Shown here piece by piece: positions 13,887 to 27,702 of a stretch of 64,000 nt of DNA. Source of the stretch: Planctomycetota bacterium (GTDB lineage Bacteria > Planctomycetota > Phycisphaerae > Phycisphaerales > Phycisphaeraceae); the NCBI GenBank assembly GCA_039025855.1, contig JBCCNL010000001.1:106988-170987 (forward strand). The letters are read 5' to 3'. Each line of letters starts with the position of its first letter. Positions within the stretch are counted from its first letter, which is position 1. A model generated the notes under the pieces. That model was not told the DNA's origin, ran no database searches, and was given only the letters and a program-made list of their open reading frames with translations. Position numbers and translations under genes: made by a program.

Positions 13887-14197
13887 GACCCGGTGGGTCC
13901 AAAGCCCACTGCGGAGCGCGTTGGCGGACAACCGCTGGCCCAACCCGCCGCCGAAGTCACACGCGCTAGCGTCCCTGCTCTTATGTTTGGCCACTATCGC
14001 CATAGCATCACATCACATCAACCCGCTGAACACCCGCCAGACCCAACGGCTCTGATCCAGCACCGCGTCGGCCCTACAGGGACCCCATAAAAACACACCA
14101 CCGCTTCTGCACTTGCGCATTAATCCTGCTTGCCTCACTCGGTGCGGCAGCCGACGACCGATGAAGCAATGGTCGACACCACGCCGGTTAAGTCGGG

Positions 14198-15544
14198 TCA
14201 GTTGTGAAGGGGGTAGCGGTGACCGATCGCGTGCAGGTAGGCACAGGCCGCGTCGCGTGTGGTCTGCTGGTTCTCGAGGATGCTCCAGCCGTCTCGGCCC
14301 GGGATCATGTTGCCCTTGGACTTCTGCCGCGCATGGAAGAAGTCGAGCAGCTTGAGCCGCCAACGCATGCTCAGCGGGATGTCGTCGAAGCGTCCGGACA
14401 AGACGGCGATGAGTGCCCGGTGGACGCCGAGCGGCCCTTTGCCCTGAAGCAGCAGTTCGCGGAACGGGTGGCTGTAGAAGAGATTGATGTAGTGCAACAT
14501 CAATCCTCGGCGTGCGGCGCCGCGCTCGAGGAAGTGCTGCTTTGCCCGTTGCGGGTTGTCGTTGCTCAGGACCTGGTCGGCGGCGTGGGCGGCGTCCAGC
14601 GCGCTGGCGATCGCGAGGCGCACGCCGGAGGAAAACACGGGGTCCAGGAAGGCCTCGGCATCGCCGACCATCAGGTAGCCGTCGCCGGCACCGGGTGAAC
14701 AGGTGTAGGAGAAGTCGGCCACCGACCACGTGGTCTCGGGGAAGGTCGCGTTGGCGGTGCGCTTGGCGAGCAGCGGGGTGCGTGCGATGGACCAGGCGAG
14801 TTCTTCGCCGGGCTTGACCCCCTGCTTGCGCATCGCGGTGCTGGCGGACTTATCGACGACCAGGCCGATGGAGGTGCGCTGGTCGTCGATGGGGATCACC
14901 CAGTACCAGGCCTCGTTGGCCATGACGACCGAGATGAAGCCCTCGGCGTCGCCGGCGAGGCGCTCGACGCCGGTGAAGTGCCCGACGAACGCGACCTTGC
15001 GGTGGTTCTCGAGAACCTTCTTCGTGCCGAGGTGTTTGCCGAGCACGGTGGCCTGTCCGGAACAGTCGATCACCATCCGGGCGTGCATCGGGCCAGCGGA
15101 CGTCTGCAGAGCGCAGTCGCCCTGGCTGAGCCTCTCGATGGACTGAACGCCGACACCTTGATGCAGCGTCACGCCCGGTTGCTCGGCCGCGAAGTCGAGC
15201 ACGGCCTTGTCGAAGACGCAGCGCTCGATGTTGAACGTCTCGGTCTGCCCCCACCGCTTGCCCGATTCGAAGTAGAGCATCGCGCCCTGGTCTTCTTGAC
15301 CGGCCGAGACGATCTCGGCGCCGCGCTTCGTGATCCTGGGCAGCTTCTGCAGCGTCTCGGTCAGGCCCAGGCTGTCGAGCATCGGGTTAACGCTCGGCAG
15401 CAAAGACTCGCCGACGTGGAAACGAGGGAAGTGCTCCCGCTCGATGATGTCGACGGTGTAGCCGCGGCGCGACAACGCGATCGCGGTGCACGCCCCCGCG
15501 GGCCCACCTCCAATGATCAATGCGTCGGCTGGCTTCTGTTTCAC
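14198..15544 (-). CDS. Flavin-dependent halogenase.
   Basis: GxGxxG FAD fold (IIGGGPAGACTA), 'WYWVIP' (WxWxIP) and 'FLDPVFSSG' (FxxPxSxG) signatures are all present. GTG start at 15544 in a GTGA overlap with the upstream stop. Confidence 0.8.
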   Translation of the reverse strand: MKQKPADALIIGGGPAGACTAIALSRRGYTVDIIEREHFPRFHVGESLLPSVNPMLDSLGLTETLQKLPRITKRGAEIVSAGQEDQGAMLYFESGKRWGQTETFNIERCVFDKAVLDFAAEQPGVTLHQGVGVQSIERLSQGDCALQTSAGPMHARMVIDCSGQATVLGKHLGTKKVLENHRKVAFVGHFTGVERLAGDAEGFISVVMANEAWYWVIPIDDQRTSIGLVVDKSASTAMRKQGVKPGEELAWSIARTPLLAKRTANATFPETTWSVADFSYTCSPGAGDGYLMVGDAEAFLDPVFSSGVRLAIASALDAAHAADQVLSNDNPQRAKQHFLERGAARRGLMLHYINLFYSHPFRELLLQGKGPLGVHRALIAVLSGRFDDIPLSMRWRLKLLDFFHARQKSKGNMIPGRDGWSILENQQTTRDAACAYLHAIGHRYPLHN

Positions 15545-16455
15545 GAGGCGGCCTCGATCTCAAGACAGAGGTTGTTGCGGCAGATGTCCGATCGCATCAG
15601 TTCGATCGACACCCGCGAAGGGTAGGCCGATTCAATCCCCCGGGCTAACGCGGGCAGGTCTTCGGCATCGGTCGCGTAGATCCGGAAGTGACGCAGCCGA
15701 TCGTCCGGCTCACCGATGCCGGCCATCACCGCCCGCAGGTTGGCGAGGGTTTCGTCGAACTGGGCCTGCAGCTGGTTGGGGTGTTGGCTCTCTTCACCGA
15801 CGATGCTCGCGGTGCCGGAGACAAAGAGGTGCTGCCCGAAGCGCATGGCCCGGACGAAGACGGGCGGGCTCGGCCCGAAGCGCGGCGAGTAGCGGTAGGC
15901 CGGGGTTTGACGCGGGTTCTCCAGGGCCTCGCCGGGCTGCTCGCTGGCCAGGAGGTGGACCTGCAGGTGCTCGCCGAGGTGCCCAACGGCGGTCGCGGCC
16001 GGCGTGCGATGGGGCAGTTGGTCCTCGCCGAAGCGTTGGACGAACGCGGCGGTGCGCCCGGCGTTGAAGGCCATGTAGCGATCGAACGGCTCGTGTTCGG
16101 GGGCTTGAGATTCCCAGTCCGCGAGCTGGTCGGCGGGGGCGGTGATGGGCTGGACGATGCCGGGCAGCCCGTTCCAGAGGCGGAGCAGGTGGGGGTGCCC
16201 GGTCTGGTCGAGCAGGTCGAAGAGCCGGGTGTAGAGGTCCTCGACGGTGTCTTCGAGCTGACGGGCGTCCATGGTGCTGGCGTGGGGGAGCGCGGCGTGG
16301 ACCCGGAGCATGCCGTTCTGTGCGGCGTGGTTCAGGGTGGCATCGCCCGACGGCGCAGCGGGCGGCGGGCAGAGCGCGTCGAGCCAGGACGGGGCGAGCA
16401 GCTCGTCGTCGGGCAGCTGTCGGATGCGGGGCGTGTCAGTCGTCGGTGGGTGCAT
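15541..16455 (-). CDS. Chorismatase-like protein (FkbO/Hyg5/XanB2 family) with a C-terminal YjgF/RidA-like domain.
   Basis: C-terminal 'LFVSGTASIVGEESQHPNQLQAQFDETLANLRAV' matches the RidA-fold core. The ~150-aa N-terminal extension matches the chorismatase family arrangement. Context is an aryl-polyene cluster. Confidence 0.55.
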   Translation of the reverse strand: MHPPTTDTPRIRQLPDDELLAPSWLDALCPPPAAPSGDATLNHAAQNGMLRVHAALPHASTMDARQLEDTVEDLYTRLFDLLDQTGHPHLLRLWNGLPGIVQPITAPADQLADWESQAPEHEPFDRYMAFNAGRTAAFVQRFGEDQLPHRTPAATAVGHLGEHLQVHLLASEQPGEALENPRQTPAYRYSPRFGPSPPVFVRAMRFGQHLFVSGTASIVGEESQHPNQLQAQFDETLANLRAVMAGIGEPDDRLRHFRIYATDAEDLPALARGIESAYPSRVSIELMRSDICRNNLCLEIEAAS

Positions 16456-18640
16456 CGGGTCTGGATACGATAATGCTGCTGCGGAGTCCGGAGGGGCAGG
16501 CGGACGCGAGATTTGTAGACGGCGGACCTAGCTGGGCCAGGGTGTGGAGCAGCGCGAGGCCGGTGCCGAGGGCGAACCAGGGCCCGTGGGGGAAGGGCTG
16601 GTGCCCGGCGGTGCGGAGCGGTTGCTCTTGCCGCAGATCGGTCGGGCAGAACGCGGGGCTCGGGCGGCCCTGCGTGAAGAGCTCGGCCAAGGCTTCGGTC
16701 GGGTCGTGGTATGAAACGAGGCTCGGGTCGCTCAGGACGGCCACAGGCTTGCTGCTCGCGTCCAAACGCTGGAGCACCAGCGCGATCGCGCCTTCGTGTG
16801 GGGCCGCATCGGGTGCGATGTGGCCAAAGTCCGCGACGATCTGCCGCACCAACGGGTGATCCTCCTCGGCGATACAGACGATCGCGGTGGTCCACCGCCC
16901 CGAAGCGATCCGGGCGGTCGCTAAGGCGAGGGCGTCGAGGCCGCTGGTGTGCGTGCCGATGATGCTCTGGCTTGGGCCGTGCAGCTTGTAGACCATCGAG
17001 AGGTGCGCCGCCGGTGCGTTGGGCACACCCTCGGCGAAGAGCAGCGGGTTGGCGGCCTGATAGCCCTCTTCGATCAGCGGCTTGTAGTAGTCGAGCGCGT
17101 AGCTCGCGGACCCGTTGGCGGAGGCGACCAGGCAGGCGGGCCGGGCTTCGGCGGGCGCATCGAGCCCGGGCAGGTCGGCCGGGTCGATCCCCGCGCGGTG
17201 CAGGGCGAGGTCGGTGGCCTTGAGGGCCAGACGGGTCAGCGGGCTGAGCCTCCGGGTCTTGGCCCGGGGCATGCCGGTGTTGAGGTCTGCCGGTGCGATG
17301 GTGCCGGTCGCCCACAGCAAGTCTTGATCCGGTACGCCTTCGCAGACGATGCCCGGCAGCACCACGCCAACGCCCGTGATCGCGACGCCTTGTTGGTCTT
17401 GGCTGCCTTGGTGATCCGAATGGTGAACGGACTGGGGATCCGAGCCGGGCGCGGACTGGATCATGCCGACGTTGGCCCCGCCGAAGCCAAGCGAGCTGGA
17501 GAGGAAGTGCGGGATCGGCGTGGCCAGCTCGGGCGGCGTCCCGGTGGCGAGTTGGACGGGCTCGCCGACCTGCTCGGGCGTGACGCTGGCGGTGGTGGGG
17601 AGTCGCCCGGCATCGAGGCAGGCACGGGCGATACCCGCTTCGAGTGCGCCGCAAGCGCCGAGGGTGTGACCGATCCGGCTCTTGAGGGCCGCGACCCGCG
17701 GGCCTTGGTCGCCGAAGACCTGGTGCAGGGCTTTGGCTTCCGCGGCGTCGTTGTCGCGGGTTCCGGTCGCGTGTGCCATCGCCAGGCCGATCGATGCTGT
17801 GTTGAGCTGAGCGTCACGCACAGCGTCGGCCATCGCGGCCGCAGCCCCCCTGCCGTCGGGGTGGGGCTGGGTGAGGTGGTGAGCGTCGGAGGACTCGCCG
17901 ATCCCGCGGATCAAGGCCTGCACGCCTTGGCCACGCTGCTCAGCATGCCCAGCGCGTTCGAGCACGAACACGGCGTAACCCTCGGAGACCTGCATGCCCT
18001 GGCGGTCGGCGGCGAACGGGCGCAGCCGGTCCATCGTGACCACGCGGAGCGAGTGGAACCCCGCGACGGCGTACTCGCTCACCGGGTCGTACCCGCCACA
18101 CAGGACGATGTCTGCGTCGCCGGACTCGAGGAGTGCGCGGGCGTGGCCGACCGACGAGAACGCCGATGCACACGCTGATGAGCAGGTCACGCGTGCTCCG
18201 CCGACGGGCAGGCCCTCGAGTGCGTGCTGCATGACGTGACCGGCCTGGAACCACGCGAAGACCGCGGTCGGCGATCCGCGCAGCCACGCCCCCGCGGCGT
18301 TCATGCCGTGGAGGCTGGTCCCGAGCACGGCACTGATCCGCTCCGGCGGACAGGGTGGGGCGTCGGCGTCGATGCCCGCCGCTTCGATCGCTTCGCGGGC
18401 CGCGATCGCCAGCCCGCGCGCGGCGCGTTCGTGGATCGGCAGGCCGGCGAGGCTGGCGCACTCGCCCCCGCGGATGCCCTCGTCGGCGACCTGCTCCGCC
18501 AGCTCCATGTCGCGGTAGGGGCCGAGCCCGACGCCGTCCCGGCACAGTGCCTCGACCTGCGCAGCGACGCCCGCGCCCAGCGGGCTGATGCAGCCGAACC
18601 CGGTGATCACGGGCGTGTTGCTTGGGTCTGCCTGACTCAT
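16436..18640 (-). CDS. Fused beta-ketoacyl-ACP synthase / chain-length-factor (KS-CLF) polypeptide.
   Basis: The N-half carries the KS active site 'VTCSSACASAF' and His motifs. The C-half is a second thiolase-fold repeat lacking the active Cys (CLF-like). ATG at 18640 overlaps the upstream stop as ATGA. Confidence 0.8.
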   Translation of the reverse strand: MSQADPSNTPVITGFGCISPLGAGVAAQVEALCRDGVGLGPYRDMELAEQVADEGIRGGECASLAGLPIHERAARGLAIAAREAIEAAGIDADAPPCPPERISAVLGTSLHGMNAAGAWLRGSPTAVFAWFQAGHVMQHALEGLPVGGARVTCSSACASAFSSVGHARALLESGDADIVLCGGYDPVSEYAVAGFHSLRVVTMDRLRPFAADRQGMQVSEGYAVFVLERAGHAEQRGQGVQALIRGIGESSDAHHLTQPHPDGRGAAAAMADAVRDAQLNTASIGLAMAHATGTRDNDAAEAKALHQVFGDQGPRVAALKSRIGHTLGACGALEAGIARACLDAGRLPTTASVTPEQVGEPVQLATGTPPELATPIPHFLSSSLGFGGANVGMIQSAPGSDPQSVHHSDHQGSQDQQGVAITGVGVVLPGIVCEGVPDQDLLWATGTIAPADLNTGMPRAKTRRLSPLTRLALKATDLALHRAGIDPADLPGLDAPAEARPACLVASANGSASYALDYYKPLIEEGYQAANPLLFAEGVPNAPAAHLSMVYKLHGPSQSIIGTHTSGLDALALATARIASGRWTTAIVCIAEEDHPLVRQIVADFGHIAPDAAPHEGAIALVLQRLDASSKPVAVLSDPSLVSYHDPTEALAELFTQGRPSPAFCPTDLRQEQPLRTAGHQPFPHGPWFALGTGLALLHTLAQLGPPSTNLASACPSGLRSSIIVSRPDAPTDD

Positions 18641-19539
18641 GAAGGCGCGGGGTCTTTCAGTTCGTGCTGGTTCTCGATAAAGGCCCGTTGGAGCGTGTGC
18701 CATTGGCCGGGTTGACGGGCGATGATCCCGGAGAAGAACGCGGCGAGCCGGTGTCGGATCGAGTCCTTGTCGGGGTGTGGGTCGGCCTCGCTTGGACCGA
18801 TGGGCCGGTCGATATGGAGCAGGACGCGGCCGTCGGGCTGAACGCTACAGGCAATCGGGAGGATGGGGGCACCGGTGATCTGTGCGAGCTTGGCGGGGCC
18901 GTCGGGCATCTGCATGTGGCCGTGCAGGAAGGGGGTGGGCGTACCGGGCTGGCCGGGCATGCAGCGGTCGGCCTGGATCAGGACGGCGGCGCCACGGCAC
19001 AGCGCGTCGCGGAGCTGCATCCATGTCTCCAATCCGCCCTCGACCCGCGCTTCGGTCAGACGCAGCCGCCGGTGCAGCTCGCTACGCATCCGGTCAAACC
19101 CGCTGTCCTCGTCGCTCTGGAACAGGATGTGTGTCTCCGGCACCCGCTCGGCGACGGCCACGGCACCCACCTCGAAGTTGCCCACGTGGCAGGTCGCGAT
19201 GATCAGGCCACGCTCCATCTGGAGCGCCGCCTCGAAGTGGTCTCGGCCCTCGATGTCCGCGACGCGGCCGAGCATCTGAGCGGGGTCCATGACCCGGGCC
19301 TGTGCGAGATCGCCAACGAACCGCAGAAACTCGCAGACCACGGACCGCCCGTAGCGCGCGAGTGCCGCGTCGTCGGCGTCCGGCCCGAGCACCCAGCGCC
19401 CGTTGCTCTTGCAGACACGCCTGAGGTAGCCGGAGCCGAACCAGGCGATCGCCGCTAAGGCGTCGCGGTGCCGGACCAGCCAGCCCGGCCGAAGCGCGAC
19501 GGCACTGAACAGGAGCTTGAGAGTAAGGCGGTGAAGCAT
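18637..19539 (-). CDS. LpxL/HtrB-type lipid A biosynthesis acyltransferase-like protein (lysophospholipid acyltransferase superfamily).
   Basis: Family-level similarity ('IIATCHVGNFE' region). ATG at 19539. Its position matches the lauroyl-acyltransferase-like gene of aryl-polyene clusters. Confidence 0.6.
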   Translation of the reverse strand: MLHRLTLKLLFSAVALRPGWLVRHRDALAAIAWFGSGYLRRVCKSNGRWVLGPDADDAALARYGRSVVCEFLRFVGDLAQARVMDPAQMLGRVADIEGRDHFEAALQMERGLIIATCHVGNFEVGAVAVAERVPETHILFQSDEDSGFDRMRSELHRRLRLTEARVEGGLETWMQLRDALCRGAAVLIQADRCMPGQPGTPTPFLHGHMQMPDGPAKLAQITGAPILPIACSVQPDGRVLLHIDRPIGPSEADPHPDKDSIRHRLAAFFSGIIARQPGQWHTLQRAFIENQHELKDPAPS

Positions 19540-19554: not shown

Positions 19555-20295
19555 TCAGCGGCGGTTGTCCTGCTCGGAGTTCCCCTCCGGGTACTCGACG
19601 CGTGCATCGTCCGGCACGTCCAACGCGATCTCAGTGTCCGCCACCGTCTGGTTGATACGCACCTGCGAGAACTCCATATCGGTCCGGTCACCCGCCGCAT
19701 CGGTGGACGAGGCGCTGACGATCAGTCCCAGCATCGGGTCGAATCCCAGCGTGAGCGACTGCATGTGTTCGCGGACCGACTCACGGGGCTCGAGCGCGAG
19801 CGTGACCCGGCCGCTGCGTGGATCGGTCGACAGATCGGCAAGCCGGAAGTCCCTGGCGAGCGCTTCGGGGTCGGGTCGGCCCGTGGTCATCGCCATGCCG
19901 TTGGGGGGGATGCGGTAGACCTCGAGCACGTTGTCATCGGGGTAGTAGATGTGCATCTGCGTGGCGTTGAAATGCATCTCGACGGGCGACGGCGTGGTGA
20001 GCGACAAGCGTGCGGCCTCGCCCTTGGCGACGAAGCGGCCTCGCGAGACGACCGGCTCATCGAGCAGCAGGCTGGTGCGCTTCTGCGTGAACACGGCGCG
20101 GACCGACTCGGGCTTCGGCGACTGATCCAGCAACTGGCCGAGCTGCTTCCAACGCTCGGCCTCGGATGTTTCGTCGGGCTGGCTGGCGGACTCGGCGACG
20201 GCCGGCGCGGGGCAAGCGAGGATGACCGCCAGCATCAGGCAGCACCGGGCGGCCAGCGAGGTGACATATGTCCAGACTGAGACGGAGCAACGCAC
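19555..20295 (-). CDS. LolA-like outer-membrane lipoprotein carrier family protein.
   Basis: Signal peptide followed by a beta-rich, LolA-sized (246 aa) protein. Context matches aryl-polyene clusters. GTG at 20295; an alternative ATG lies at 20235. Confidence 0.55.
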   Translation of the reverse strand: MRCSVSVWTYVTSLAARCCLMLAVILACPAPAVAESASQPDETSEAERWKQLGQLLDQSPKPESVRAVFTQKRTSLLLDEPVVSRGRFVAKGEAARLSLTTPSPVEMHFNATQMHIYYPDDNVLEVYRIPPNGMAMTTGRPDPEALARDFRLADLSTDPRSGRVTLALEPRESVREHMQSLTLGFDPMLGLIVSASSTDAAGDRTDMEFSQVRINQTVADTEIALDVPDDARVEYPEGNSEQDNRR

Positions 20296-20302: not shown

Positions 20303-20764
20303 TCAACCCTTGAGCACGTTGGTGAGGAGGATCTCGCCGCGGGCGATCAGCCGACCATCGACGTGTGCGGCGACGAGAAACGTGGTGATGCCGGCCGTGT
20401 CGCCTTGGGTCTCGGAGGACAAGTCGATCCGGGCGGGCGGGACGACCGGTCGCTTGAGGACGACGTCCGCCTTGACGATCCCGGCCTGCACCGGCTCGGC
20501 ACCCGGCTCGGCGTCAAAGTGGATCAGCCCGCTGAACTGCGCGAGTGCTTCGATCAGCAGCACGCCGGGCACGATCGGTCGGCCCGGGAAGTGGTCCTTA
20601 AAGAACGGCTCGTCGCCGCGGACCCGCCAGTGGCCCTTACCGTGGGTCGTCCCGTCCGGCGTCGATCCGCACTCATCGACGGCGGTTACAAAGCGGAAGC
20701 CGTCGCCGTGCGGCAGCGACGTCGGCGTGGGCAAATCCTGAGTGTTTCGCGTCTCTCCGGGCAC
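20303..20764 (-). CDS. FabA/FabZ-like 3-hydroxyacyl-ACP dehydratase (hotdog fold).
   Basis: '[10 protein letters not shown]...[23 protein letters not shown]' matches the FabZ catalytic His region. GTG at 20764. Confidence 0.8.
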
Positions 20765-20876
20765 GATTTAGACTATAGCAGCAGGCGTTGTTAGACTGCC
20801 TCTGATGTCGTTTGGCCGCGGCGGTACCACCGCCGGCCGCTTTCACCTCGCACAACTTTCGCCTTGGGGATTACCT
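20765..20876. promoter_or_regulatory. Divergent promoter region between the aryl-polyene operon (minus) and a lipoprotein gene (plus). Contains a TTAGACT direct repeat (20768..20774 and 20791..20797).
   Basis: Seen directly in the sequence. The region has lower GC than its surroundings. Confidence 0.3.
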
Positions 20877-21296
20877 ATGACTCGCGTCCTTCCGCTGCTT
20901 CTGGTTGCCACGCTCTGCCTGTCTGTCGCCGCCTGCCAATCCAGCGGTGTCAAGGGCACGCCGATGATTGAGCCCGCACCCGTGGACATCACGGGCCTGG
21001 ATAAAGACAAGGTCTCGAAGGCGGTCTTCGCCGCCGTCGAATCACGCGGCTTTATCTTCGAAAGCGGCACATCGACTTCCATGCAGGTCGGCTGGGCCCG
21101 CGGCAAGTACACCGCAACCTGGGAGATCGATTTTGCGGGCGACGAGGTCATCCTCAGCTACGTCGATAGCCAGGAGCTGTCGTACAACGAAGACGCCGAG
21201 GGCAACCCGTTCATCCACCGGACCTACAACACCTGGACCACCAACCTGCGGAGCGACATCGCCCGTGAGGTCGGCAAGCTGCGGTTCAGCAGCTGA
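20877..21296 (+). CDS. Small lipoprotein (signal peptide + lipobox LSVAAC), function unknown.
   Basis: ORF 20805..21296 trimmed to the ATG at 20877 (MTRVLPLLLVATLCLSVAAC). The only plus-strand gene inside the aryl-polyene cluster. Confidence 0.55.
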   Translation: MTRVLPLLLVATLCLSVAACQSSGVKGTPMIEPAPVDITGLDKDKVSKAVFAAVESRGFIFESGTSTSMQVGWARGKYTATWEIDFAGDEVILSYVDSQELSYNEDAEGNPFIHRTYNTWTTNLRSDIAREVGKLRFSS

Positions 21297-21326: not shown

Positions 21327-21351
21327 GCCCAAACCGTCTTAGGGTTTGGGC
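21327..21351. terminator. Hairpin GCCCAAACC-(gtcttag)-GGTTTGGGC between convergent genes. It overlaps the methyltransferase stop codon.
   Basis: Perfect 9-bp inverted repeat seen in the sequence. No U-tract follows, so an intrinsic terminator is unproven. Confidence 0.3.
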
Positions 21352-22136
21352 TTGGTGCCCAGGTACTCCTTGAAGACGCTGAGCGTACTGTTGCAGCGCA
21401 CGTCCTCGAAGCCGGCCTCACGCATCGCGTTCATGATGGCCTCGGAGTCGATGCAGGTCTGGATCGTGTCCCAGTAGTAGCGCCAGAGCGTGCCGACCTC
21501 TTTGCGCTCGCCGGTGAGCCGGGCCAGGAGCGGAACGACCCGCCGGATGTAGAGCCCACCGAGCCAGCCGGTCAGTCGGCCGCGCGGCTTGGTGATCTCC
21601 ATCAGGCAGACCTGGCCGCCGGGCTTGAGCACCCGCAGGTATTCGCCGAACGCCTGCTCCAGGCTGCTGAGGTGCCGCAGCGCGTACCCCATCGTGACCA
21701 GGTCGAACCGGTCGTCGTCTAGCGGGATCGACTCGGCGTAGCCCTCGATGACCTCGACGTCGAGCTTCTGCTTCGCCTCGGCGAGCATGCCCGGTGAGGG
21801 GTCGAGCCCGACAAGGACGCCGCCGGGCAGGTTCAGCTTCTGGATCTCGACCGCCACCAGCCCCGTCCCCATCGCGACATCCAGCACGTCGTCGCCGGGC
21901 TTGAGCCCCATGCGTCTGAGCACCCGCCTGCGGTACCACGGCCCGACGCCCAGCCCTGTCAACGCCTCGGCCTTGTCGTAGCCCGCCGCCCCGGCGTCGA
22001 ACATCTCACGCGTCCGGTCACGGCGCTGCGCTTCACTCTCGTAGTAGCGCTCCAGGCCCGCACCCTCCACCAGCGGGGTGTCGGCACCACCGATGGTGGA
22101 CTCGCTCGGCAGGCTCGGTGCGGTGCTCGGCATCAC
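21339..22136 (-). CDS. Class I SAM-dependent methyltransferase (UbiE/COQ5 family).
   Basis: Motif I 'VLDVAMGTGLVAVEI'. Start is GTG at 22136 (GTGA overlap) or ATG at 22133. Confidence 0.85.
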   Translation of the reverse strand: MMPSTAPSLPSESTIGGADTPLVEGAGLERYYESEAQRRDRTREMFDAGAAGYDKAEALTGLGVGPWYRRRVLRRMGLKPGDDVLDVAMGTGLVAVEIQKLNLPGGVLVGLDPSPGMLAEAKQKLDVEVIEGYAESIPLDDDRFDLVTMGYALRHLSSLEQAFGEYLRVLKPGGQVCLMEITKPRGRLTGWLGGLYIRRVVPLLARLTGERKEVGTLWRYYWDTIQTCIDSEAIMNAMREAGFEDVRCNSTLSVFKEYLGTKPKP

Positions 22137-23458
22137 GCCACCCCCGCGGGGCTCGTGGCTGGTCGGTGATCGACACGCGTCAGGGCCAACGCCCGGTGGT
22201 GCAGCGTGGTCTGAGCGAACAGCACCGTGACGAACGGGACCATGCCCGTCAGCGCCGCACCCGTCGGCCGCAGCAGGATGCCCATGAAGACAGCCAGAAC
22301 CGAGACGCCGGCGATCACCCAGGCGTCGCCCCGGTTCGAGGCTTCCGGCACCCGGTCGACCCCCAACAGCCAGCCCGGCCGAAACACCGCGAGCATCACA
22401 CAGACCGCAGCGACCCAGAGGTGCAGCGCGAGCTCCTGCAGCTGGCCGTAGCTGTTATGGATCAGCGGATAGAACGCGGTGCCCTGCGATAGAACGCCCA
22501 GCGAGCCCAGCAAGAGGAACATGAACGACGCGGCGGGCAGCGGCTGGTAGCCGAGTCGCAGGCGTCGCCACAGCGCGATCACGATGAGGCTGAGCGTGCC
22601 ACCGACGAGGAAGGCCGGGTGCCAGCGCGGCTCGGGCTCAAGCCCCATCCGGACCAGCCCGACGATCAGGAACACCGACAGCGGCAGGTAGAGCAGTTGG
22701 TGCCGCAGCCACTTGTTCAGGAAGACCGCGGGCCGCGGATGGTCCTTGAGAACTGCAGCGTGCATCGCCAGGCTGTGCAGCGAGTCGCGGAGCGGTTTGA
22801 AGTGGCTGATCCGCTGGGCTCTGGGCGAGTAGTGCGAGTCGATCGGCACCGTGGTCACGCCGACGCCAGCCCTCCCGGCACGGATGAGCACCTCGGTCTC
22901 GAAAGCGAACCGAGAGAACACGCAGTCCAGCTTCTCGACGACGGCGAGCGGGTAGACACGGAAGCCGGTCTGCGAATCGCTGACCCGGACGCCGGACTGC
23001 AAGGAGATCAGACGGTTCGACACACGCCGGCCCACGGTCGATCGCCACGGCGTGCCGCCCTCCGCCTTGGCAGGGCGCTCGCCCAGGATTAGGTCCCCGG
23101 GGTACCGGACCGCGGCGTCCCACAGCAGGCCGATCTGCTGTGGGTCGTGCTGGCCGTCGGCATCGAGCGTGATGGCGTGGGAGTAGCCCAGCGCCCGGGC
23201 CCGGTCGAACCCGGTCATCAACGCCGCGGCCTTGCCCCGGTTGGCCGGGTGCTTCTCCAGGTGGAGCGAGGCGTCCGGATCGTCGGCTCGCAATTGGGCC
23301 AGCGTCTGATCCGTGCCGTCGGTGCTCCCGTCGTCCACCACGATGCAGGCCCAGCCCGCGTCGAGCACCGCCCGGGCGATCGTGCAGACGGTCGAGCCGT
23401 TCTGGTAGGTCGGCACAACGATGACCGGTCGGATCGCGGTGTCAGTGGCGGGTGGCAT
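22133..23458 (-). CDS. Glycosyltransferase family 2 with a C-terminal multi-TM domain.
   Basis: 'VIVVPTYQNGSTV...VVDDGSTDGTDQ' GT-A DxD region. ATG at 23458. The C-terminal half is hydrophobic. Confidence 0.8.
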   Translation of the reverse strand: MPPATDTAIRPVIVVPTYQNGSTVCTIARAVLDAGWACIVVDDGSTDGTDQTLAQLRADDPDASLHLEKHPANRGKAAALMTGFDRARALGYSHAITLDADGQHDPQQIGLLWDAAVRYPGDLILGERPAKAEGGTPWRSTVGRRVSNRLISLQSGVRVSDSQTGFRVYPLAVVEKLDCVFSRFAFETEVLIRAGRAGVGVTTVPIDSHYSPRAQRISHFKPLRDSLHSLAMHAAVLKDHPRPAVFLNKWLRHQLLYLPLSVFLIVGLVRMGLEPEPRWHPAFLVGGTLSLIVIALWRRLRLGYQPLPAASFMFLLLGSLGVLSQGTAFYPLIHNSYGQLQELALHLWVAAVCVMLAVFRPGWLLGVDRVPEASNRGDAWVIAGVSVLAVFMGILLRPTGAALTGMVPFVTVLFAQTTLHHRALALTRVDHRPATSPAGVA

Positions 23459-23490: not shown

Positions 23491-23751
23491 TTAGGCCATC
23501 CGGGTCTGGAGATAGGTCGCCAGCGTTCGGAGGTCACGCATCGTCTCAGGCCCCATCTCGTCGGGACTGAGCTTGATGCCGTACTTCTTTTCAATGCTGG
23601 TGATAAGCATGAGGTAGTCCAGCGAGTCGAACCCGATGTCCTCGGAAGCGAACGAAGTGGTTGGGGTCAGCTCGACGTCGCCGAGCTTCAGGTCCCGCCG
23701 GATGATCTCGATCAGAGCCCCCTCCAGTTCCTCAACATTCACCACTTTCAT
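23491..23751 (-). CDS. Acyl carrier protein, dedicated to the polyene pathway.
   Basis: 86 aa with the 'GFDSLD' phosphopantetheine-attachment motif. The ATG at 23751 is preceded by GGAGG. Confidence 0.85.
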   Translation of the reverse strand: MKVVNVEELEGALIEIIRRDLKLGDVELTPTTSFASEDIGFDSLDYLMLITSIEKKYGIKLSPDEMGPETMRDLRTLATYLQTRMA

Positions 23752-23778: not shown

Positions 23779-24465
23779 CTACTCGCGATAGGCGTGGCGG
23801 CGTCGCGTCGCGCACTGATCCTCGGGAATCCCCATCTCCTCGAGCAGGTCCCGGTGCAGGCCGCGGATGCGGTCGGCCAGCTCGGCTTCGTACCGCCGGA
23901 GGCCCTCGGGGCCGGACCGTTTGTCCGGCGGCGGCATCGGTTCGCCAAAAGCAATCCCGTAGCGGGCCTGGTTCGGAAACCATGCGCTCCAACGTGCAAA
24001 GGTCAGCGAGTCCTCGATCGCACAGGGGATCATCGGGGCCTTGCCCAGCCGGGCGATCCCGCCGATCCCTGGCACGAGGCTCCCGCCGTGCAGCACCGAC
24101 TTGTCCTGAAAACTCAGCGCCCCCTCAGGGAAGACACCCACGCTCCGGCCCTGCTTCAGCCGCGCCACAATGTCACGCACCGTCTTCGGGTCCGGCTTCG
24201 ACTGATCCAACGGCATCGCATTACACATCCGATACAGCCAGCCCGCACGGGAGTTGATGATCTCCGTCGTCGAAACGAAGTCGATCTTGACCGGCATGTA
24301 GTACATCAGGATCGCGATGTCGTAAGGGCTCGTGTGGTTCGAGGCCACCATCAGCGGTCCCTCGAGACCCTTGAGGTGATCGAGACCCAACGCCGTCGGC
24401 TTGTGGCAGATCACGAAACCGGGCCAACAGATTCCGTAAACGACGTTGTAAAAAAGATCGGACAT
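23779..24465 (-). CDS. PlsC-type 1-acylglycerol-3-phosphate acyltransferase-like (LPLAT).
   Basis: HxxxxD motif 'NHTSPYD' and 'FPEGA' motif. ATG at 24465. Confidence 0.75.
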   Translation of the reverse strand: MSDLFYNVVYGICWPGFVICHKPTALGLDHLKGLEGPLMVASNHTSPYDIAILMYYMPVKIDFVSTTEIINSRAGWLYRMCNAMPLDQSKPDPKTVRDIVARLKQGRSVGVFPEGALSFQDKSVLHGGSLVPGIGGIARLGKAPMIPCAIEDSLTFARWSAWFPNQARYGIAFGEPMPPPDKRSGPEGLRRYEAELADRIRGLHRDLLEEMGIPEDQCATRRRHAYRE

Positions 24466-24469
24466 CGGT

Positions 24470-25237
24470 CTAGGTCTGAGCCGTGGCGTGGGGTGGGTGG
24501 AGAGCGCTACCCGCTGCGGCGTGGGGATCGACTTTAACGAGACTGGGGTCGTCCGGCTCGCCGGGGCTCAGGTCGTGGCGGTCGTCCACGCCGTCGAACT
24601 GGAGCAGCCGCTTGTACATCGCCGGGTAGGACGCGCGGAGCCGATCGCCGAGGGCTCGGCGTTGTTCACGACGCCCGCGGTGGTCGTTGTGCAGCGGTTC
24701 GGGGTGGATCGGCTCACCGACCGCGACATGGACCGCCGCGTGCCGGAACGGCCGCCAGGTCGTAGCCCGGTTCATGGCGTGTGTCCCGATGAGCGCGATC
24801 GGGATGATCGGCACCTGGCCGTGCATCGCGAGGAAGCACGCCCCCTGCTTGATCGGGCCGCCGCGCATGGCCGAGTACTGGCGACGCGACACCCCGGCCT
24901 CGGGGAACACGCCAACGCGTTCACCCTCCGCCAACAGCTCAAGCCCGCGGCGCAGCGCCGGCCGTGGGTAGCCCTGCCGATGGACCGGGAACGCCCGAAC
25001 CGCACGAAGCGCCCAGGCCAGCAGGCGGGACTTGTAGAACTCAGTCCGCGCCATCCACCGCACCTCGTCGCGTAGCAGGATGCCGAGGACCAGCGGGTCC
25101 AGGTGCGAGATGTGCGTCGGCGCGATGATGCAAGGCCCGTCGACCCCGAGGTGCTCCGGGTTCAGGATGGTCGTGGGCATCGTGCACCACGTGATCGGCT
25201 TCACCAGCCAGCGTGCGGTTTGATAAGCCAGGGTCAT
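24470..25237 (-). CDS. Second PlsC-type acyltransferase-like protein.
   Basis: ORF 24470..25681 trimmed to the ATG at 25237 (MTLAYQTARWL...). Carries 'HISHLD' and 'FPEAG' motifs. ATGA overlap with the MMPL stop. Confidence 0.7.
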   Translation of the reverse strand: MTLAYQTARWLVKPITWCTMPTTILNPEHLGVDGPCIIAPTHISHLDPLVLGILLRDEVRWMARTEFYKSRLLAWALRAVRAFPVHRQGYPRPALRRGLELLAEGERVGVFPEAGVSRRQYSAMRGGPIKQGACFLAMHGQVPIIPIALIGTHAMNRATTWRPFRHAAVHVAVGEPIHPEPLHNDHRGRREQRRALGDRLRASYPAMYKRLLQFDGVDDRHDLSPGEPDDPSLVKVDPHAAAGSALHPPHATAQT

Positions 25238-27702
25238 CGGTCTTGCCCTTCGACCAGTAGAGAGCCCGCGTTGCGTCGCCCGACCGAGAGCCCGAGCAGC
25301 CAGGTCGTCACGAGGACCGCGACGAGCCCGGCGGTGACCATCCACCCCAACTCGCGCACCGCCGGGATCGACGTCCACATGAGCGAGCCAAACCCGATAA
25401 AGGTCGTCACGAACGTCAGGTGGATGCCCGTCAATCGGCTTCGGATTGTAACCACACACCCCCGCGCGACGGCATCGCCCAGCAGCAGGCTCGCATCGAC
25501 CCCGATCCCCAGCAGCAGCGGCACCGCCGCCAGCGTGACCACGTTCCATTGACCCGACCCCAGCCGCTGCACGAGCAGCGCCGCGAGCAGACCCATCGCC
25601 GGCGGCAGCACCGTCACCACCACACGCCCAACCCGCCGGAGGCTCACCAGCAGCACCAGCCCGATCGGGATCACCGACCACGCGAACGCCCGCAGCAGGT
25701 CACGACGCAGCTGCTTCCGCATCTGCTCGCTGATCAGGTCGAGCCCGGTGGCTTGGAACCCGTCAAGCCCCGACAGCGCTTCACGCAGCCCGTCGAGGTC
25801 TTCACGCCGGTCCGACTCCCGCGCCCACGAACGCGTCGGTACCAGCAGCGCCACCGTGGCCGGCGCGTCGGCATCGAACGGGCTCGGGAAGAACAGCCCC
25901 CCCGCACCGGACCGGGCCAACGCCTCAAGCCCCGGCGACGGCGTCGCCAAAAACCCCGCCAAAAAATCCCCGGCCGGCTCGAACACCGCAGGCCGAAACC
26001 CGGCCTGTCCAGCCGCCTCCAGCAACAAACGCTTGACCTCGACCGGATCGATGTCAGCGAGCAACGCGCTGTTGCGCACGTCGGCCCCAGCCTCGGGCAG
26101 CAGGCTCAGCGCGCTGGCCTTCTCAAACGGGGTATCGAGCCCATGCAGCCGATCCAACCGCTCGTACAGCTGCCCCGCGTCTTCAGCCTCGATCAGCACC
26201 AGCACAGAACCCTGGCGTTGGCCGAACGACCGCTCCATCCGCTGCTGAGCCTCGAGCGTCGGGTTGGGCTGCGGGTGCAGGTTGTACAAGGTCAGTGCGC
26301 TGTCATCCCCGCGGATCAGCACGGCACTCAAGATCATCACCAGGACAAAGGCGATGCCCGCGACGCGTAGCCACGTCGAGTGCGCGAGCGCCCAAACGAG
26401 CAGACGATGAGGCGTTGCGCTGGTCCGGGGAGTCACCGTCTTGCACAGCCCAGTCAACGTGGGCAGAAGGGTCAGCGAGGCGATCGCCGCGCAGGCCAGC
26501 GCCAGACCGCCGAGCACCGCGAGCTGCTTCAGTGCGGTCGGCTCGGTGGCAAGCAGCGCCAGGAAGCCGCACGTCGTGGTGATGCACGCCGTCGCGATCG
26601 GCCGGGCCAGCGTCCGCGCCGCCGACCACGCCCGCTGCACCGGGGTCGTGCCGTCGGGCGCGGCACGCCGCACCTCCGTGAGCAGATGGATCCCGTAGTC
26701 CACGCCCAGCCCCGCGAGCATGCCGCCAGACAATGCCGCGAGCGGCGACAGCCTCATCCCGGTCAGGCCAAAAAGCCCGAACGCGGTGAACATCGCCACT
26801 AGGGTCGTCGTCAACAGCAACACGATCGGCGTCAGCCGCCGCCACACGATCAGGAACACCCCGACCAGCCCGACCGACGCGAACAGCACCGACCCCTTGA
26901 TGTCGTCCCGCACCCGGCCCGCCGCCTCGGCCGCCATCATGTGCCCCCCCACCGCCTCGAACCGCAGCGTCGGATAGTCCCGGCCCAGCGGTGCCAACAC
27001 CCCGTTCAAGGCTTCGGACAATTCAACCGAACGCGCGTGGTCACTCGGAGCAAACGGCACCGCGAGCGTGAGGGACCACGCCGTGCCGGACGCGCTAAAC
27101 CGCCCAGCCAGCGGATTGGTCGGTGCGCTCCATTCCGTCTCATCAATACCCGGCGCGGACGGCGTGTCTGCACCCAGCCGTTCCGCAAAGTCGCGCGGCA
27201 CGAGCTCGCGGAGCCCCAGCGGGTCGCGCAGCATCTGCCGTGTGACCTCCGCCGGCTGCGGCGTAGCGAGGCGTTGCTTGTGGCGCTGCAGCCTCGCCCG
27301 GATCGACTCGGGCTCCAGCCGGGCGCGCAGTTCCACCACCGCCTCTTCGCTGAGCCAGGCCCGGCCACGCGGGACCTGCTGAATCACCCAATCACGGGCC
27401 TGCAACTCGGCCACGGCCTGCGCCTCGACACCAAGCTCCTCAAGCCCCTGCGAATCACGGATCGCATCACGCAGCTGATCGATCGCTTCGATCGGGAGCG
27501 GCGTGGCATCATCACGCGAGCTGACCAAGACGTGCGCCGTACCACCGATGCGAAACCGCTCGTTGATCTGCACCATCGCATCGACCGCGGGGAAGCCCTG
27601 GCCAAGCGTGTTCTCGACCGACGGGTCGAGCTCGAGCCGCGTCCAGCCGATGCACGCCAGCACGAACAGCGCCGGCCACAGGTAGAGGGAAAGGCGTCGC
27701 AT
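25234..27702 (-). CDS. MMPL/RND-superfamily exporter.
   Basis: 822 aa with two 6-TM bundles separated by periplasmic loops. This is the canonical exporter slot of aryl-polyene clusters. ATG at 27702. Confidence 0.8.
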   Translation of the reverse strand: MRRLSLYLWPALFVLACIGWTRLELDPSVENTLGQGFPAVDAMVQINERFRIGGTAHVLVSSRDDATPLPIEAIDQLRDAIRDSQGLEELGVEAQAVAELQARDWVIQQVPRGRAWLSEEAVVELRARLEPESIRARLQRHKQRLATPQPAEVTRQMLRDPLGLRELVPRDFAERLGADTPSAPGIDETEWSAPTNPLAGRFSASGTAWSLTLAVPFAPSDHARSVELSEALNGVLAPLGRDYPTLRFEAVGGHMMAAEAAGRVRDDIKGSVLFASVGLVGVFLIVWRRLTPIVLLLTTTLVAMFTAFGLFGLTGMRLSPLAALSGGMLAGLGVDYGIHLLTEVRRAAPDGTTPVQRAWSAARTLARPIATACITTTCGFLALLATEPTALKQLAVLGGLALACAAIASLTLLPTLTGLCKTVTPRTSATPHRLLVWALAHSTWLRVAGIAFVLVMILSAVLIRGDDSALTLYNLHPQPNPTLEAQQRMERSFGQRQGSVLVLIEAEDAGQLYERLDRLHGLDTPFEKASALSLLPEAGADVRNSALLADIDPVEVKRLLLEAAGQAGFRPAVFEPAGDFLAGFLATPSPGLEALARSGAGGLFFPSPFDADAPATVALLVPTRSWARESDRREDLDGLREALSGLDGFQATGLDLISEQMRKQLRRDLLRAFAWSVIPIGLVLLVSLRRVGRVVVTVLPPAMGLLAALLVQRLGSGQWNVVTLAAVPLLLGIGVDASLLLGDAVARGCVVTIRSRLTGIHLTFVTTFIGFGSLMWTSIPAVRELGWMVTAGLVAVLVTTWLLGLSVGRRNAGSLLVEGQDR

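What the first reader, a model, noticed from the sequence alone, without database searches (positions are those of the whole stretch)
14198..16455. Overlapping halogenase and chorismatase-like genes suggest a halogenated hydroxybenzoate starter unit
The halogenase shows all three FDH signatures: GxGxxG, WxWxIP as 'WYWVIP', and FxxPxSxG as 'FLDPVFSSG'. It begins with a GTG that overlaps the stop of the chorismatase-like gene as GTGA. That gene in turn overlaps the KS-CLF gene by 20 nt. Tight coupling of aromatic-starter synthesis (XanB2/FkbO-like) and halogenation argues that halogenation occurs on the free or ACP-bound aryl starter.
Basis: partly seen in the sequence, partly recalled or inferred. 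Interest (0 to 1): 0.55.

Follow-up and report, generated by a model that had tools for sequence, protein, structure and literature searches.

The report
Halogenated aryl-polyene pigment operon, planctomycete
The two overlapping genes are a real halogenase and a real hydroxybenzoate-forming chorismatase, but they are the last two genes of a xanthomonadin-type aryl-polyene pigment operon, a gene pairing already known from Xanthomonas and Azoarcus and seen here in a marine planctomycete.

Summary
A 448-aa flavin-dependent halogenase (14198-15544, minus strand) starts at a GTG that overlaps the stop of a 304-aa chorismatase (15541-16455) as GTGA. The chorismatase overlaps a fused KS-CLF gene by 20 nt. 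Both refutation tests fail. The chorismatase matches Hyg5 and FkbO over nearly its full length and keeps the catalytic Glu and the Gly/Cys pair of the 3-hydroxybenzoate formers. The halogenase keeps the Lys and Glu that align with CmlS K71 and E44.

The pair is not a stand-alone novelty. It ends a 16-kb operon with an aryl-AMP ligase, ACP, KS-CLF, dehydratase, methyltransferase, acyl- and glycosyltransferases, a LolA-like protein and an MMPL exporter. That is a xanthomonadin-type aryl-polyene cluster, where a halogenase next to a XanB2-type chorismatase is already published. The host is a Planctomycetota MAG. Phycisphaerae relatives, including cultured Algisphaera agarilytica, share the cassette.

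The overlap says nothing about when halogenation happens, because four-base overlaps occur at five junctions of this operon. Conserved adjacency across phyla supports a functional link. Homology does not decide between a free, ACP-bound or late-stage substrate.

Verdict: new member of a known kind, modest interest.

The parts
14198..15544 (-). Flavin-dependent halogenase, 448 aa, GTG start; last gene of the operon
   Evidence: Pfam Trp_halogenase 3.2e-22. PDB matches: FasV 1.5e-46, CmlS, Bmp2, CndH, PltA. Motifs GGGPAG 12-17, WYWVIP 213-218, FLDPVFSSG 299-307, plus K73 and E46. AF2 model pLDDT 90.7; Foldseek top hits are FDHs.
15541..16455 (-). Chorismatase of the Hyg5/XanB2 kind, 304 aa; predicted hydroxybenzoate (3-HBA, possibly also 4-HBA) synthase
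   Evidence: FkbO_Hyg5-like_N 4e-18 plus a weak RidA domain. Hyg5 5ag3 9e-25 and FkbO 4bps 2e-18. TIGR04444 140 bits, below its cut-off of 325. G214, C292 and E299 align with Hyg5 G240, C327 and E334.
16436..18640 (-). Fused ketosynthase / chain-length-factor-like protein, 734 aa (the ORF is open up to 18703)
   Evidence: ketoacyl-synt N and C domains, plus a faint second KS-like half. C158, H291 and H325 are intact. The NCBI call is 734 aa; the fusion occupies a single frame in relatives.
18637..19539 (-). LpxL/lipid-A-type acyltransferase-like protein
   Evidence: Lip_A_acyltrans 2.1e-18
19555..20295 (-). LolA-like carrier protein
   Evidence: LolA 2.7e-8; weak match to the flexirubin LolA2 model
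20303..20764 (-). FabA/FabZ-like (ApeI-like) dehydratase
   Evidence: FabA 1.6e-14; the orthologues in L081-L083 carry PF22818 ApeI-like
20805..21296 (+). Small lipoprotein-like ORF on the opposite strand inside the operon, function unknown
   Evidence: Codon-position GC favours the + frame. 38% identical (E 4.5e-34) to an ORF at the same position in L082. No Pfam or NCBIfam match.
21339..22136 (-). UbiE-type SAM methyltransferase
   Evidence: Ubie_methyltran 8.4e-32
22133..23458 (-). Family-2 glycosyltransferase
   Evidence: Glycos_transf_2 3.8e-21
23491..23751 (-). Acyl carrier protein, 86 aa
   Evidence: PP-binding 6.5e-11; GFDSLD serine motif
23779..24465 (-). Acyltransferase (PlsC-type)
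   Evidence: PF01553 8.8e-16
24470..25237 (-). Second PlsC-type acyltransferase; the start is inferred at ATG 25237, which overlaps the MMPL stop
   Evidence: PF01553 6.6e-21; start choice
25234..27702 (-). MMPL/RND-type exporter
   Evidence: MMPL 6.4e-16; HAE3/HpnN-like
27706..28497 (-). Conserved protein of unknown function between the ligase and the exporter; the start is inferred at GTG 28497
   Evidence: No family match. Unannotated genes occupy the same position in L083 and L086. Weak tblastn matches in L007 and L009.
28494..30086 (-). AMP-dependent ligase, candidate hydroxybenzoate:ACP ligase (XanA2/ArcT-like role)
   Evidence: AMP-binding 1.9e-47 plus the C-terminal domain; benzoate-CoA ligase family match

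Best explanation
The halogenase and chorismatase are the two distal genes of a roughly 16-kb, 14-gene operon (about 14198-30086, minus strand) for a xanthomonadin-like, probably halogenated and O-methylated aryl-polyene lipid pigment. The host is a marine, algal-polysaccharide-degrading Planctomycetota MAG whose closest relatives are Phycisphaerae.

Proposed mechanism:
1. The chorismatase converts chorismate to 3-hydroxybenzoate, possibly with some 4-hydroxybenzoate.
2. The AMP-dependent ligase loads the hydroxybenzoate onto the cluster ACP.
3. The fused KS-CLF extends it with malonyl units. The ApeI-like dehydratase, and a ketoreductase encoded elsewhere, produce the polyene.
4. The methyltransferase O-methylates the ring.
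5. The acyl- and glycosyltransferases attach the chain to a lipid or sugar anchor.
6. The LolA-like protein and the MMPL exporter move the product to the outer membrane.
7. The halogenase, using FADH2 from an unlinked flavin reductase, brominates or chlorinates the aryl end.

My best guess for the halogenase substrate is the ACP-tethered aryl starter or an early elongation intermediate, not free hydroxybenzoate.

Shown here: gene identities, catalytic residues, operon architecture and conserved synteny. Inferred: the product, the halide used, and above all the timing of halogenation.
For: Gene content matches the published xanthomonadin, arcuflavin and APE clusters.

Chorismatase: matches Hyg5 and FkbO over nearly its full length and keeps E299. 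It has G214 and C292, the residues typical of 3-HBA formers; FkbO has Ala at both positions.

Halogenase: all three motifs plus K73 and E46, equivalent to CmlS K71 and E44. High-confidence FDH fold.

Synteny...DH-LolA-LpxL-KSCLF-Chor-Hal is conserved in eleven Planctomycetota loci, including cultured Algisphaera agarilytica. A 4-nt Chor/Hal overlap is present in five of them. Chor-Hal-AMP-ligase are consecutive in most. Hal-Chor adjacency in the opposite order holds in Nitrospira and in Beta- and Gammaproteobacteria.

ACP-tethered substrate: most of the nearest solved homologues are carrier-protein-dependent 'variant B' FDHs, namely PltA, Bmp2, Mpy16, ChlB4 and CndH.

Habitat: sulfatases, a porphyranase and a GH2 enzyme in the window imply a marine, halide-rich setting.
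Against: - No ketoreductase, thioesterase or second KS lies in the operon or anywhere in the window, yet the KR XanH/FabG3 is essential in Xanthomonas. The pathway as drawn needs genes from elsewhere.
- The best-scoring solved homologue, FasV, and also RadH, act on free late-stage polyketides.
- From my own knowledge, not tested here: xanthomonadin I carries one bromine on the polyene carbon next to the ring. That bromine cannot come from a pre-halogenated benzoate.
- Azoarcus has arcA (halogenase) next to arcB, but the paper's text search found no mention of halogenation of arcuflavin. A halogenase gene therefore does not guarantee a halogenated product.
- Related halogenases occur in aryl-polyene-type clusters with no chorismatase (L002) and outside any such cluster (L084).
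- The 3-HBA/4-HBA ratio cannot be read from sequence (PMC3949708).
Confidence: 0.6

Rival explanations
1. Late-stage halogenation: the halogenase acts on the finished or nearly finished aryl-polyene, either free, still on the ACP, or already lipid-linked, and not on the starter.
For: The closest solved homologue by sequence and by fold is FasV, a late-stage chlorinase of a free naphthacenone. RadH is also in the hit list. Family members sit in aryl-polyene clusters that lack the chorismatase (L002). From my own knowledge, one bromine of xanthomonadin I is on the polyene chain.
Against: Strong conservation of Hal-Chor adjacency, and of Chor-Hal-AMP-ligase order in Planctomycetota. Most neighbours in sequence space are carrier-dependent early-stage enzymes. 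Identity to FasV is only about 30%.
Confidence: 0.25
2. Free-acid route: the chorismatase and halogenase make free halogenated hydroxybenzoate. This is then loaded by the ligase, or released as a small diffusible or toxic molecule, as proposed for BaaA/BaaB and 3,5-dibromo-p-anisic acid in another planctomycete.
For: A chorismate-utilising enzyme next to a brominase is the proposed route to dibromo-anisic acid in Planctomycetales strain 10988. 3-HBA is itself a diffusible factor in Xanthomonas. A methyltransferase is in the operon. The Azoarcus ligase ArcT showed low substrate specificity in vitro.
Against: BaaA is UbiC-like, not FkbO/Hyg5-like. Bmp5, the known brominase of free 4-HBA, lacks the WxWxIP motif that this protein has. 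The pair here is embedded in an aryl-polyene operon in all eleven Planctomycetota loci and translationally coupled in five of them.
Confidence: 0.1
3. The flavoenzyme is a ring hydroxylase, not a halogenase. It would add a second hydroxyl to the aryl group, as suggested for the Lysobacter pigment.
For: NCBIfam also matches the hydroxylases QhpG (3e-40) and LodB/GoxB. All matches are below the curated cut-offs. Lysobacter pigments are proposed to be 4-hydroxylated by an unidentified hydroxylase.
Against: WxWxIP (proposed to block mono-oxygenation), Fx.Px.Sx.G, K73 and E46 are all present and are invariant or nearly invariant in the family. The best NCBIfam and PDB matches are halogenases. The Lysobacter cluster has no gene of this family.
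Confidence: 0.05

Closest known systems
Xanthomonas pig (xanthomonadin) cluster: halogenase next to the bifunctional chorismatase XanB2, with XanA2 ligase, XanC ACP, KS/CLF and XanH (FabG3) KR
   Same: A halogenase gene sits beside a chorismatase that supplies 3-HBA as starter. Also shared are an AMP-ligase plus ACP for loading, a type II KS/CLF, a dehydratase, a methyltransferase, acyl- and glycosyltransferases, and a LolA-like/exporter pair.
   Different: Different phylum (Planctomycetota). Gene order is Chor then Hal, the reverse of the order in the proteobacterial loci sampled. KS and CLF are fused into one 734-aa protein. No KR is in the cluster. The halogenase is only 33-36% identical to the proteobacterial cluster-linked halogenases sampled. 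Direct comparison with Xanthomonas sequences was not possible.
Azoarcus sp. BH72 arcuflavin clusters (arcA halogenase / arcB XanB2-type chorismatase / arcT ligase)
   Same: Adjacent halogenase and chorismatase. ArcB was shown to make 3-HBA and 4-HBA, and ArcT to activate 3-HBA.
   Different: The Azoarcus genes are split over two loci and combined with dialkylresorcinol genes, and a KR is present. No DAR genes are in this window.
Lysobacter enzymogenes OH11 yellow-pigment cluster
   Same: Type II PKS with an unusual KS/CLF pair (ORF17/16), and a XanB2 homologue supplying 3-HBA.
   Different: Lysobacter has no halogenase and a non-brominated product. Its KS and CLF are separate genes.
Hyg5 (PDB 5AG3) and FkbO (4BPS) chorismatases
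   Same: Same two-domain fold family by sequence. Catalytic Glu conserved, and the Hyg5-type Gly and Cys are present.
   Different: About 35 residues shorter at the N-terminus. Below the TIGR04444 cut-off. Ala instead of Gly at the position of Hyg5 G173, as in the proteobacterial and Nitrospira cluster-linked homologues.
Phenol/pyrrole flavin-dependent halogenases: FasV, CmlS, Bmp2, CndH, PltA, Mpy16, ChlB4
   Same: Same fold, motifs, and Lys and Glu.
   Different: Only about 30-32% identity. These enzymes fall outside the environmental clades that contain the window protein in an unbootstrapped NJ tree.
BaaA/BaaB of Planctomycetales strain 10988 (3,5-dibromo-p-anisic acid)
   Same: A planctomycete, with a chorismate-derived hydroxybenzoate enzyme next to a flavin-dependent brominase.
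   Different: BaaA is a UbiC-like lyase. There are no PKS, ACP or export genes, and the product is a free small acid.

Membership tests
Flavin-dependent halogenase (FDH) | GxGxxG dinucleotide-binding motif near the N-terminus | tested here: met
   GGGPAG at 12-17; invariant in alignment A1
Flavin-dependent halogenase (FDH) | WxWxIP motif | tested here: met
   WYWVIP at 213-218. Both W are invariant; I and P are invariant or nearly so. Motif definition from PMC8407142.
Flavin-dependent halogenase (FDH) | Fx.Px.Sx.G tunnel motif | tested here: met
   FLDPVFSSG at 299-307; F, P, S and G invariant
Flavin-dependent halogenase (FDH) | Catalytic Lys, and the nearby Glu of the CmlS/CndH type | tested here: met
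   K73 aligns with the conserved Lys of FasV, CmlS, Bmp2 and CndH. E46 (HVGES) aligns with the GES Glu of all four. Offsets fit CmlS K71 and E44. Both are invariant in A1.
Flavin-dependent halogenase (FDH) | FDH fold | tested here: met
   AF2 pLDDT 90.7; Foldseek top 38 hits are all FDH-family structures (37 named halogenase chains plus the uncharacterised 3nix chains), TM-scores (TMq) 0.67-0.79
Flavin-dependent halogenase (FDH) | Halide-, O2- and FADH2-dependent halogenation activity | not testable with these tools
   Needs an enzyme assay; no flavin reductase gene was found in the window
Variant B (carrier-protein-dependent) FDH | Substrate must be tethered to a carrier protein | tested here: inconclusive
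   Nearest homologues are a mix of variant B (PltA, Bmp2, Mpy16, ChlB4, CndH) and free-substrate enzymes (FasV, RadH) at similar scores
FkbO/Hyg5/XanB2 chorismatase | Chorismatase-specific N-terminal domain, not a bare RidA protein | tested here: met
   PF21168 E=4e-18, 66 bits against a cut-off of 27, residues 51-170
FkbO/Hyg5/XanB2 chorismatase | C-terminal RidA/YjgF-like domain with the catalytic Glu (Hyg5 E334 / FkbO E338) | tested here: met
   Alignment with 5AG3 and 4BPS up to the C-terminal LEIE motif; E299 aligns with E334. The Pfam RidA hit is weak: 22 bits, below the cut-off of 27.3.
FkbO/Hyg5/XanB2 chorismatase | 3-HBA-forming signature Gly240/Cys327 (Hyg5 numbering), where FkbO has Ala/Ala | tested here: met
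   G214 and C292; signature residues as listed in PMC7170507. The third listed residue (Hyg5 G173) is Ala here.
FkbO/Hyg5/XanB2 chorismatase | XanB2-type product spectrum (3-HBA plus 4-HBA) | not testable with these tools
   Not predictable from sequence according to PMC3949708. The score is below the TIGR04444 subfamily cut-off.
Xanthomonadin-type aryl-polyene gene cluster | Chorismatase + aryl-AMP ligase + ACP + KS/CLF + dehydratase in one locus | tested here: met
   the same set is found in relatives L081-L083 and L086
Xanthomonadin-type aryl-polyene gene cluster | Dedicated ketoreductase (XanH/FabG3, essential in Xcc) | tested here: not met
   No short-chain dehydrogenase family hit in any ORF of the operon or the window, nor in the L081-L083 and L086 gene tables. 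It may be encoded elsewhere in the genome.
Xanthomonadin-type aryl-polyene gene cluster | Lipid-anchoring and export genes (acyltransferases, GT, LolA-like, MMPL) | tested here: met
Xanthomonadin-type aryl-polyene gene cluster | Orthology of the halogenase and chorismatase with Xanthomonas XCC4015/XCC4014 | not tested
   No Xanthomonas sequence could be fetched. The genome scan kept the 80 best loci, none from Xanthomonas. Proxy: proteobacterial cluster-linked homologues at 31-36% identity.
Xanthomonadin-type aryl-polyene gene cluster | Halogenated aryl-polyene product | not testable with these tools
   Needs chemistry

The most novel reading that the evidence does not exclude
In these alga-associated Phycisphaerae the conserved Chor-Hal(-ligase) cassette has two outputs. 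Besides priming a halogenated aryl-polyene membrane pigment, made by a stripped-down type II PKS with a fused KS-CLF and no dedicated KR, it releases free halogenated hydroxybenzoate or anisate. That free acid would act as a diffusible signal or algal toxin. It would parallel 3-HBA signalling in Xanthomonas and 3,5-dibromo-p-anisic acid in Planctomycetales strain 10988.
Probability: 0.08. Interest if true: 0.6.

Novelty: new member of a known kind. Interest (0 to 1): 0.3.

Why it matters
Three points give it some value.

1. It extends xanthomonadin-type, halogenase-bearing aryl-polyene clusters to Planctomycetota/Phycisphaerae. A 2025 review of characterised metabolites from that phylum had no occurrence of 'aryl' in a text search.

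2. When and on what substrate the aryl-polyene halogenase acts appears unresolved. I found no paper that settles it. The consecutive Chor-Hal-ligase cassette, and a cultured carrier (Algisphaera agarilytica), make this testable with three small proteins and one ACP.

3. The conserved KS-CLF fusion is a natural single-chain version of the KS/CLF heterodimer and could help structural work.

None of this overturns current understanding.

Tried and rejected
- Plain RidA protein: rejected. The chorismatase-specific N-domain and near-full-length Hyg5/FkbO alignments are there.
- Tryptophan-halogenase kinship: rejected. No Trp halogenase appears in the PDB sequence hits at 1e-5, and Xcc4156 and a Trp halogenase appear only far down the fold list.
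- Window from Xanthomonas or Lysobacter (my first guess from gene content and 66-70% GC): rejected. The halogenase is 100% identical to a protein of a Planctomycetota MAG, and its relatives are Phycisphaerae.
- Promoter and terminator scan of 13700-30500: nothing above chance.
- Self-alignment of the KS and CLF halves: no significant similarity. The CLF label rests on faint Pfam hits and on the precomputed second ketoacyl-synt hit in relatives.
- Cao et al. 2018 (xanthomonadin genes): not held in the library. No paper on PDB 8ZOP was found; its identity as FasV came from the fold-search description.
- ORFs 20843-21151 (-) and 21042-21332 (-) between MT and DH: rejected in favour of the + strand ORF 20805-21296, on codon-position GC and homology.
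- The NJ tree of halogenases has no bootstrap support and partial reference sequences. I use it only descriptively.
- Composition check: the window's flanks have an extreme strand skew that the operon does not share. I recorded this as a side observation, not as proof of transfer.
Full report
**1. Observation**

- ORF 14198-15544 (minus strand) encodes 448 aa from a GTG start. ORF 15541-16455 (minus) encodes 304 aa from an ATG start. ORF 16436-18703 (minus) is a long ketosynthase-like gene.
- The minus strand reads ...gcctcGTGAaacag... at the first junction, which is a 4-nt GTGA overlap.
- The chorismatase ATG at 16455 lies 20 nt upstream of the end of the upstream gene's stop codon at 16436.
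- Independent public gene calls on the same DNA give the same 304-aa and 448-aa products.
- The halogenase carries GGGPAG (12-17), WYWVIP (213-218) and FLDPVFSSG (299-307).
- One correction to the neighbour. The KS-CLF most likely starts at ATG 18640, giving 734 aa. That start overlaps the preceding stop as ATGA and equals the NCBI call at 100% coverage.

**2. The two proteins**

*Halogenase.*
- Pfam Trp_halogenase scores E=3.2e-22.
- The best solved-structure matches by sequence are FasV (8zop, 1.5e-46), CmlS, Bmp2, CndH, PltA, Mpy16, the uncharacterised Cytophaga protein 3nix, ChlB4 and RadH. No tryptophan halogenase appears at 1e-5.
- K73 aligns with the conserved Lys of FasV, CmlS, Bmp2 and CndH. 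E46, in HVGES, aligns with their GES Glu. The offsets fit CmlS K71 and E44.
- Both residues and all three motifs are invariant or nearly invariant across 28 homologues of 39-79% identity.
- An AlphaFold model built on that alignment has pLDDT 90.7. It superposes on the same set of halogenases with TM-scores of about 0.67-0.79.

*Chorismatase.*
- The chorismatase-specific N-terminal Pfam domain scores E=4e-18, well above its cut-off.
- The protein aligns from residue 63-70 to its last residues with Hyg5 (5AG3, 9e-25) and FkbO (4BPS, 2e-18).
- E299 corresponds to the catalytic Hyg5 E334. G214 and C292 correspond to Hyg5 G240 and C327, the residues listed as characteristic of 3-HBA-forming chorismatases. 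FkbO has Ala at both positions.
- At the position of Hyg5 G173 the window protein has Ala. So do all the Nitrospira and proteobacterial homologues that sit in aryl-polyene clusters.
- The protein scores below the curated TIGR04444 cut-off, so it is a divergent member of the family.

**3. Context**

The pair ends a co-directional block from about 30086 down to 14198. In transcription order the genes are:
1. AMP-dependent ligase
2. conserved unknown protein
3. MMPL exporter
4. two PlsC-type acyltransferases
5. ACP
6. GT2 glycosyltransferase
7. UbiE-type methyltransferase
8. a small lipoprotein gene on the opposite strand
9. ApeI-like dehydratase
10. LolA-like protein
11. LpxL-like acyltransferase
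12. KS-CLF
13. chorismatase
14. halogenase

This is the gene set of the xanthomonadin, arcuflavin and aryl-polyene clusters. In those systems a XanB2-type chorismatase supplies 3-HBA, an AMP-ligase (XanA2, ArcT) activates it and loads it onto an ACP, and an unusual type II KS/CLF builds the polyene. A halogenase gene next to the chorismatase is already described for Xanthomonas and for Azoarcus arcA/arcB.

The KS half has an intact Cys-His-His triad, and the ACP has its GFDSLD serine.

**4. Host and relatives**

- The halogenase is 100% identical to a protein of an NCBI Planctomycetota MAG on a 238-kb contig. The next relatives, at 79-58% identity, include a Phycisphaeraceae MAG. After that, identity drops to about 46%.
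- The rest of the window carries sulfatases, a porphyranase and a GH2 enzyme, which points to a marine degrader of algal polysaccharides.
- Eleven Planctomycetota loci keep ...DH-LolA-LpxL-KSCLF-Chor-Hal: L003, L006/L083, L007, L009, L011, L013, L081, L082 and L086 (cultured Algisphaera agarilytica).
- In these loci the KS-CLF is fused in a single frame. A 4-nt Chor/Hal overlap is present in five of them. In most, the AMP-ligase follows directly after the halogenase.
- In Nitrospira and in Beta- and Gammaproteobacteria the pair is also adjacent, but in the order Hal then Chor, and the KS is not fused.
- Fused KS-CLF proteins of 710-830 aa form more than 120 protein clusters.
- Many homologous halogenases of Acidobacteriota and Verrucomicrobiota have no chorismatase within 10 kb.
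- One Phycisphaerales locus (L002) has the halogenase beside a separate KS, CLF, ACP and ligase, with no chorismatase.
- In an unbootstrapped NJ tree the window protein falls in a Planctomycetota/Acidobacteriota group. This group is separate from the proteobacterial/Nitrospira chorismatase-linked group. The characterised enzymes lie outside both groups, at about 30-32% identity to the window protein.

**5. Mechanism and timing**

The pathway I propose is the standard one. Chorismate is converted to 3-HBA, possibly with some 4-HBA. The ligase loads it onto the ACP. The KS-CLF, the dehydratase and a KR build the polyene. O-methylation, lipid or sugar attachment and export follow.

Two points need care.

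- *No ketoreductase in the cluster.* No KR, thioesterase or second KS is found in the operon, in the window, or in the related loci. In Xanthomonas the cluster KR is essential. The pathway must borrow FabG or use a second locus, as Azoarcus does.

- *The overlap is not evidence for timing.* Four-base overlaps occur at five junctions of this operon, so the GTGA overlap says nothing specific about this pair. What does argue for a functional link between starter synthesis and halogenation is conserved adjacency in two gene orders across phyla, and the Chor-Hal-ligase cassette. Homology does not settle the substrate:
  - PltA, Bmp2, Mpy16, ChlB4 and CndH act, or are thought to act, on carrier-tethered substrates.
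  - FasV and RadH act on free late-stage polyketides.
  - From my own knowledge, one bromine of xanthomonadin I sits on the polyene carbon next to the ring. A halogenated benzoate starter alone could not produce that.

My estimates for the halogenase substrate are:

| Substrate | Probability |
|---|---|
| ACP-tethered aryl starter or early intermediate | about 0.4-0.5 |
| Late-stage aryl-polyene | about 0.25 |
| Free hydroxybenzoate | about 0.1 |
| Enzyme is a hydroxylase, not a halogenase | about 0.05 |

The Azoarcus case also warns that a halogenase gene need not yield a halogenated product. A text search of that paper found no mention of halogenation of arcuflavin, despite arcA.

**6. Comparison and novelty**

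The locus works like the xanthomonadin system and passes most membership features. It fails one, the dedicated KR. Orthology with the Xanthomonas genes could not be tested, because no Xanthomonas sequence was retrievable.

What is new is the phylum, the conserved KS-CLF fusion, the reversed gene order and the compact gene set. I found no paper describing aryl-polyene clusters with a halogenase in Planctomycetota. A text search of a 2025 review of the phylum's metabolites found no occurrence of 'aryl'. The only halogenated aromatic reported from the phylum uses a UbiC-like lyase and no PKS.

I rate the finding a new member of a known kind, interest 0.3.

**7. Side observations**

- Flanking genes show an extreme third-position GC skew on the + strand (-0.4 to -0.79), whatever their orientation. 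The distal half of the operon (14198-25237) has +0.26 to -0.09. This suggests recent insertion or inversion of the block.
- In the closest relative (L081) the cluster is 57% GC against 48-52% in its flank.
- A small lipoprotein gene on the opposite strand inside the operon is conserved in L082.

Noticed in passing
window 2590-13886 and 39523-59096 versus 14198-25237: Flanking genes have a very strong third-codon-position GC skew on the + strand (-0.4 to -0.79), whatever their orientation. That looks like an unusually large replication-type strand bias. The distal half of the aryl-polyene operon has +0.26 to -0.09, and MMPL/unknown/ligase are intermediate. This suggests recent insertion or inversion of the block. 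Relatives L082 and L083 show no such skew. In L081 the cluster is 57% GC against 48-52% in its flank.
   Followed up: partly
window 20805-21296 (+): A 163-aa lipoprotein-like ORF lies on the opposite strand inside the operon, between the methyltransferase and the dehydratase. It has no family match. It is 38% identical (E 4.5e-34) to an ORF at the same position in L082 and is absent from L081.
   Followed up: partly
window 16436-18640 (-); L003, L005, L006, L007, L009, L011, L081-L083, L086: KS and CLF-like halves are fused into one polypeptide of about 730 aa. The fusion is conserved in Planctomycetota and present in more than 120 protein clusters. Proteobacterial and Nitrospira loci, and L002, have a separate KS.
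   Followed up: partly
window 14198-30086; L081-L083, L086: No ketoreductase, thioesterase or second ketosynthase is found in this cluster or in its Planctomycetota relatives, although the cluster KR is essential in Xanthomonas.
   Followed up: partly
window 30105-41436 (+): A five-gene block: a YqiJ-like membrane protein, a 713-aa unknown, a 1849-aa protein with DUF3686 ('ATPase involved in DNA repair') + DUF7902 + AAA domains, a 315-aa unknown, and a 637-aa AAA protein. Function not explored.
   Followed up: no
window 4401-5740 (-): An extremely G-rich coding strand (plus-strand GC skew -0.53) encodes a Gly/Ala/Val/Trp-rich polytopic membrane protein with no Pfam match. Next to it are ATP-grasp-like, AMP-binding-like and GT1 genes (5741-9702), possibly a separate glycan or lipid locus.
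   Followed up: no
window 9855-13886 (+): A 1343-aa secreted-type protein combines cadherin-like/Big_9, Calx-beta, PA14 and glucose/sorbosone dehydrogenase (GSDH) domains. It is convergent with the halogenase.
   Followed up: no
window 42716-49961 (-) and 50056-63349: A SecA-like protein (SecA DEAD-like, preprotein cross-linking and P-loop domains), a PqqD + M50 peptidase fusion and two HlyD-family proteins lie in a row. They are followed by two sulfatases, a GH2, an aldehyde dehydrogenase and a porphyranase-like protein, which indicates a marine alga-associated lifestyle.
   Followed up: no
L085 10001-12057: In a soil metagenome contig, a homologous halogenase (43% identity) overlaps by 4 nt a didomain ApeI-like/ApeP-like dehydratase, with no chorismatase or KS within 10 kb.
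   Followed up: no
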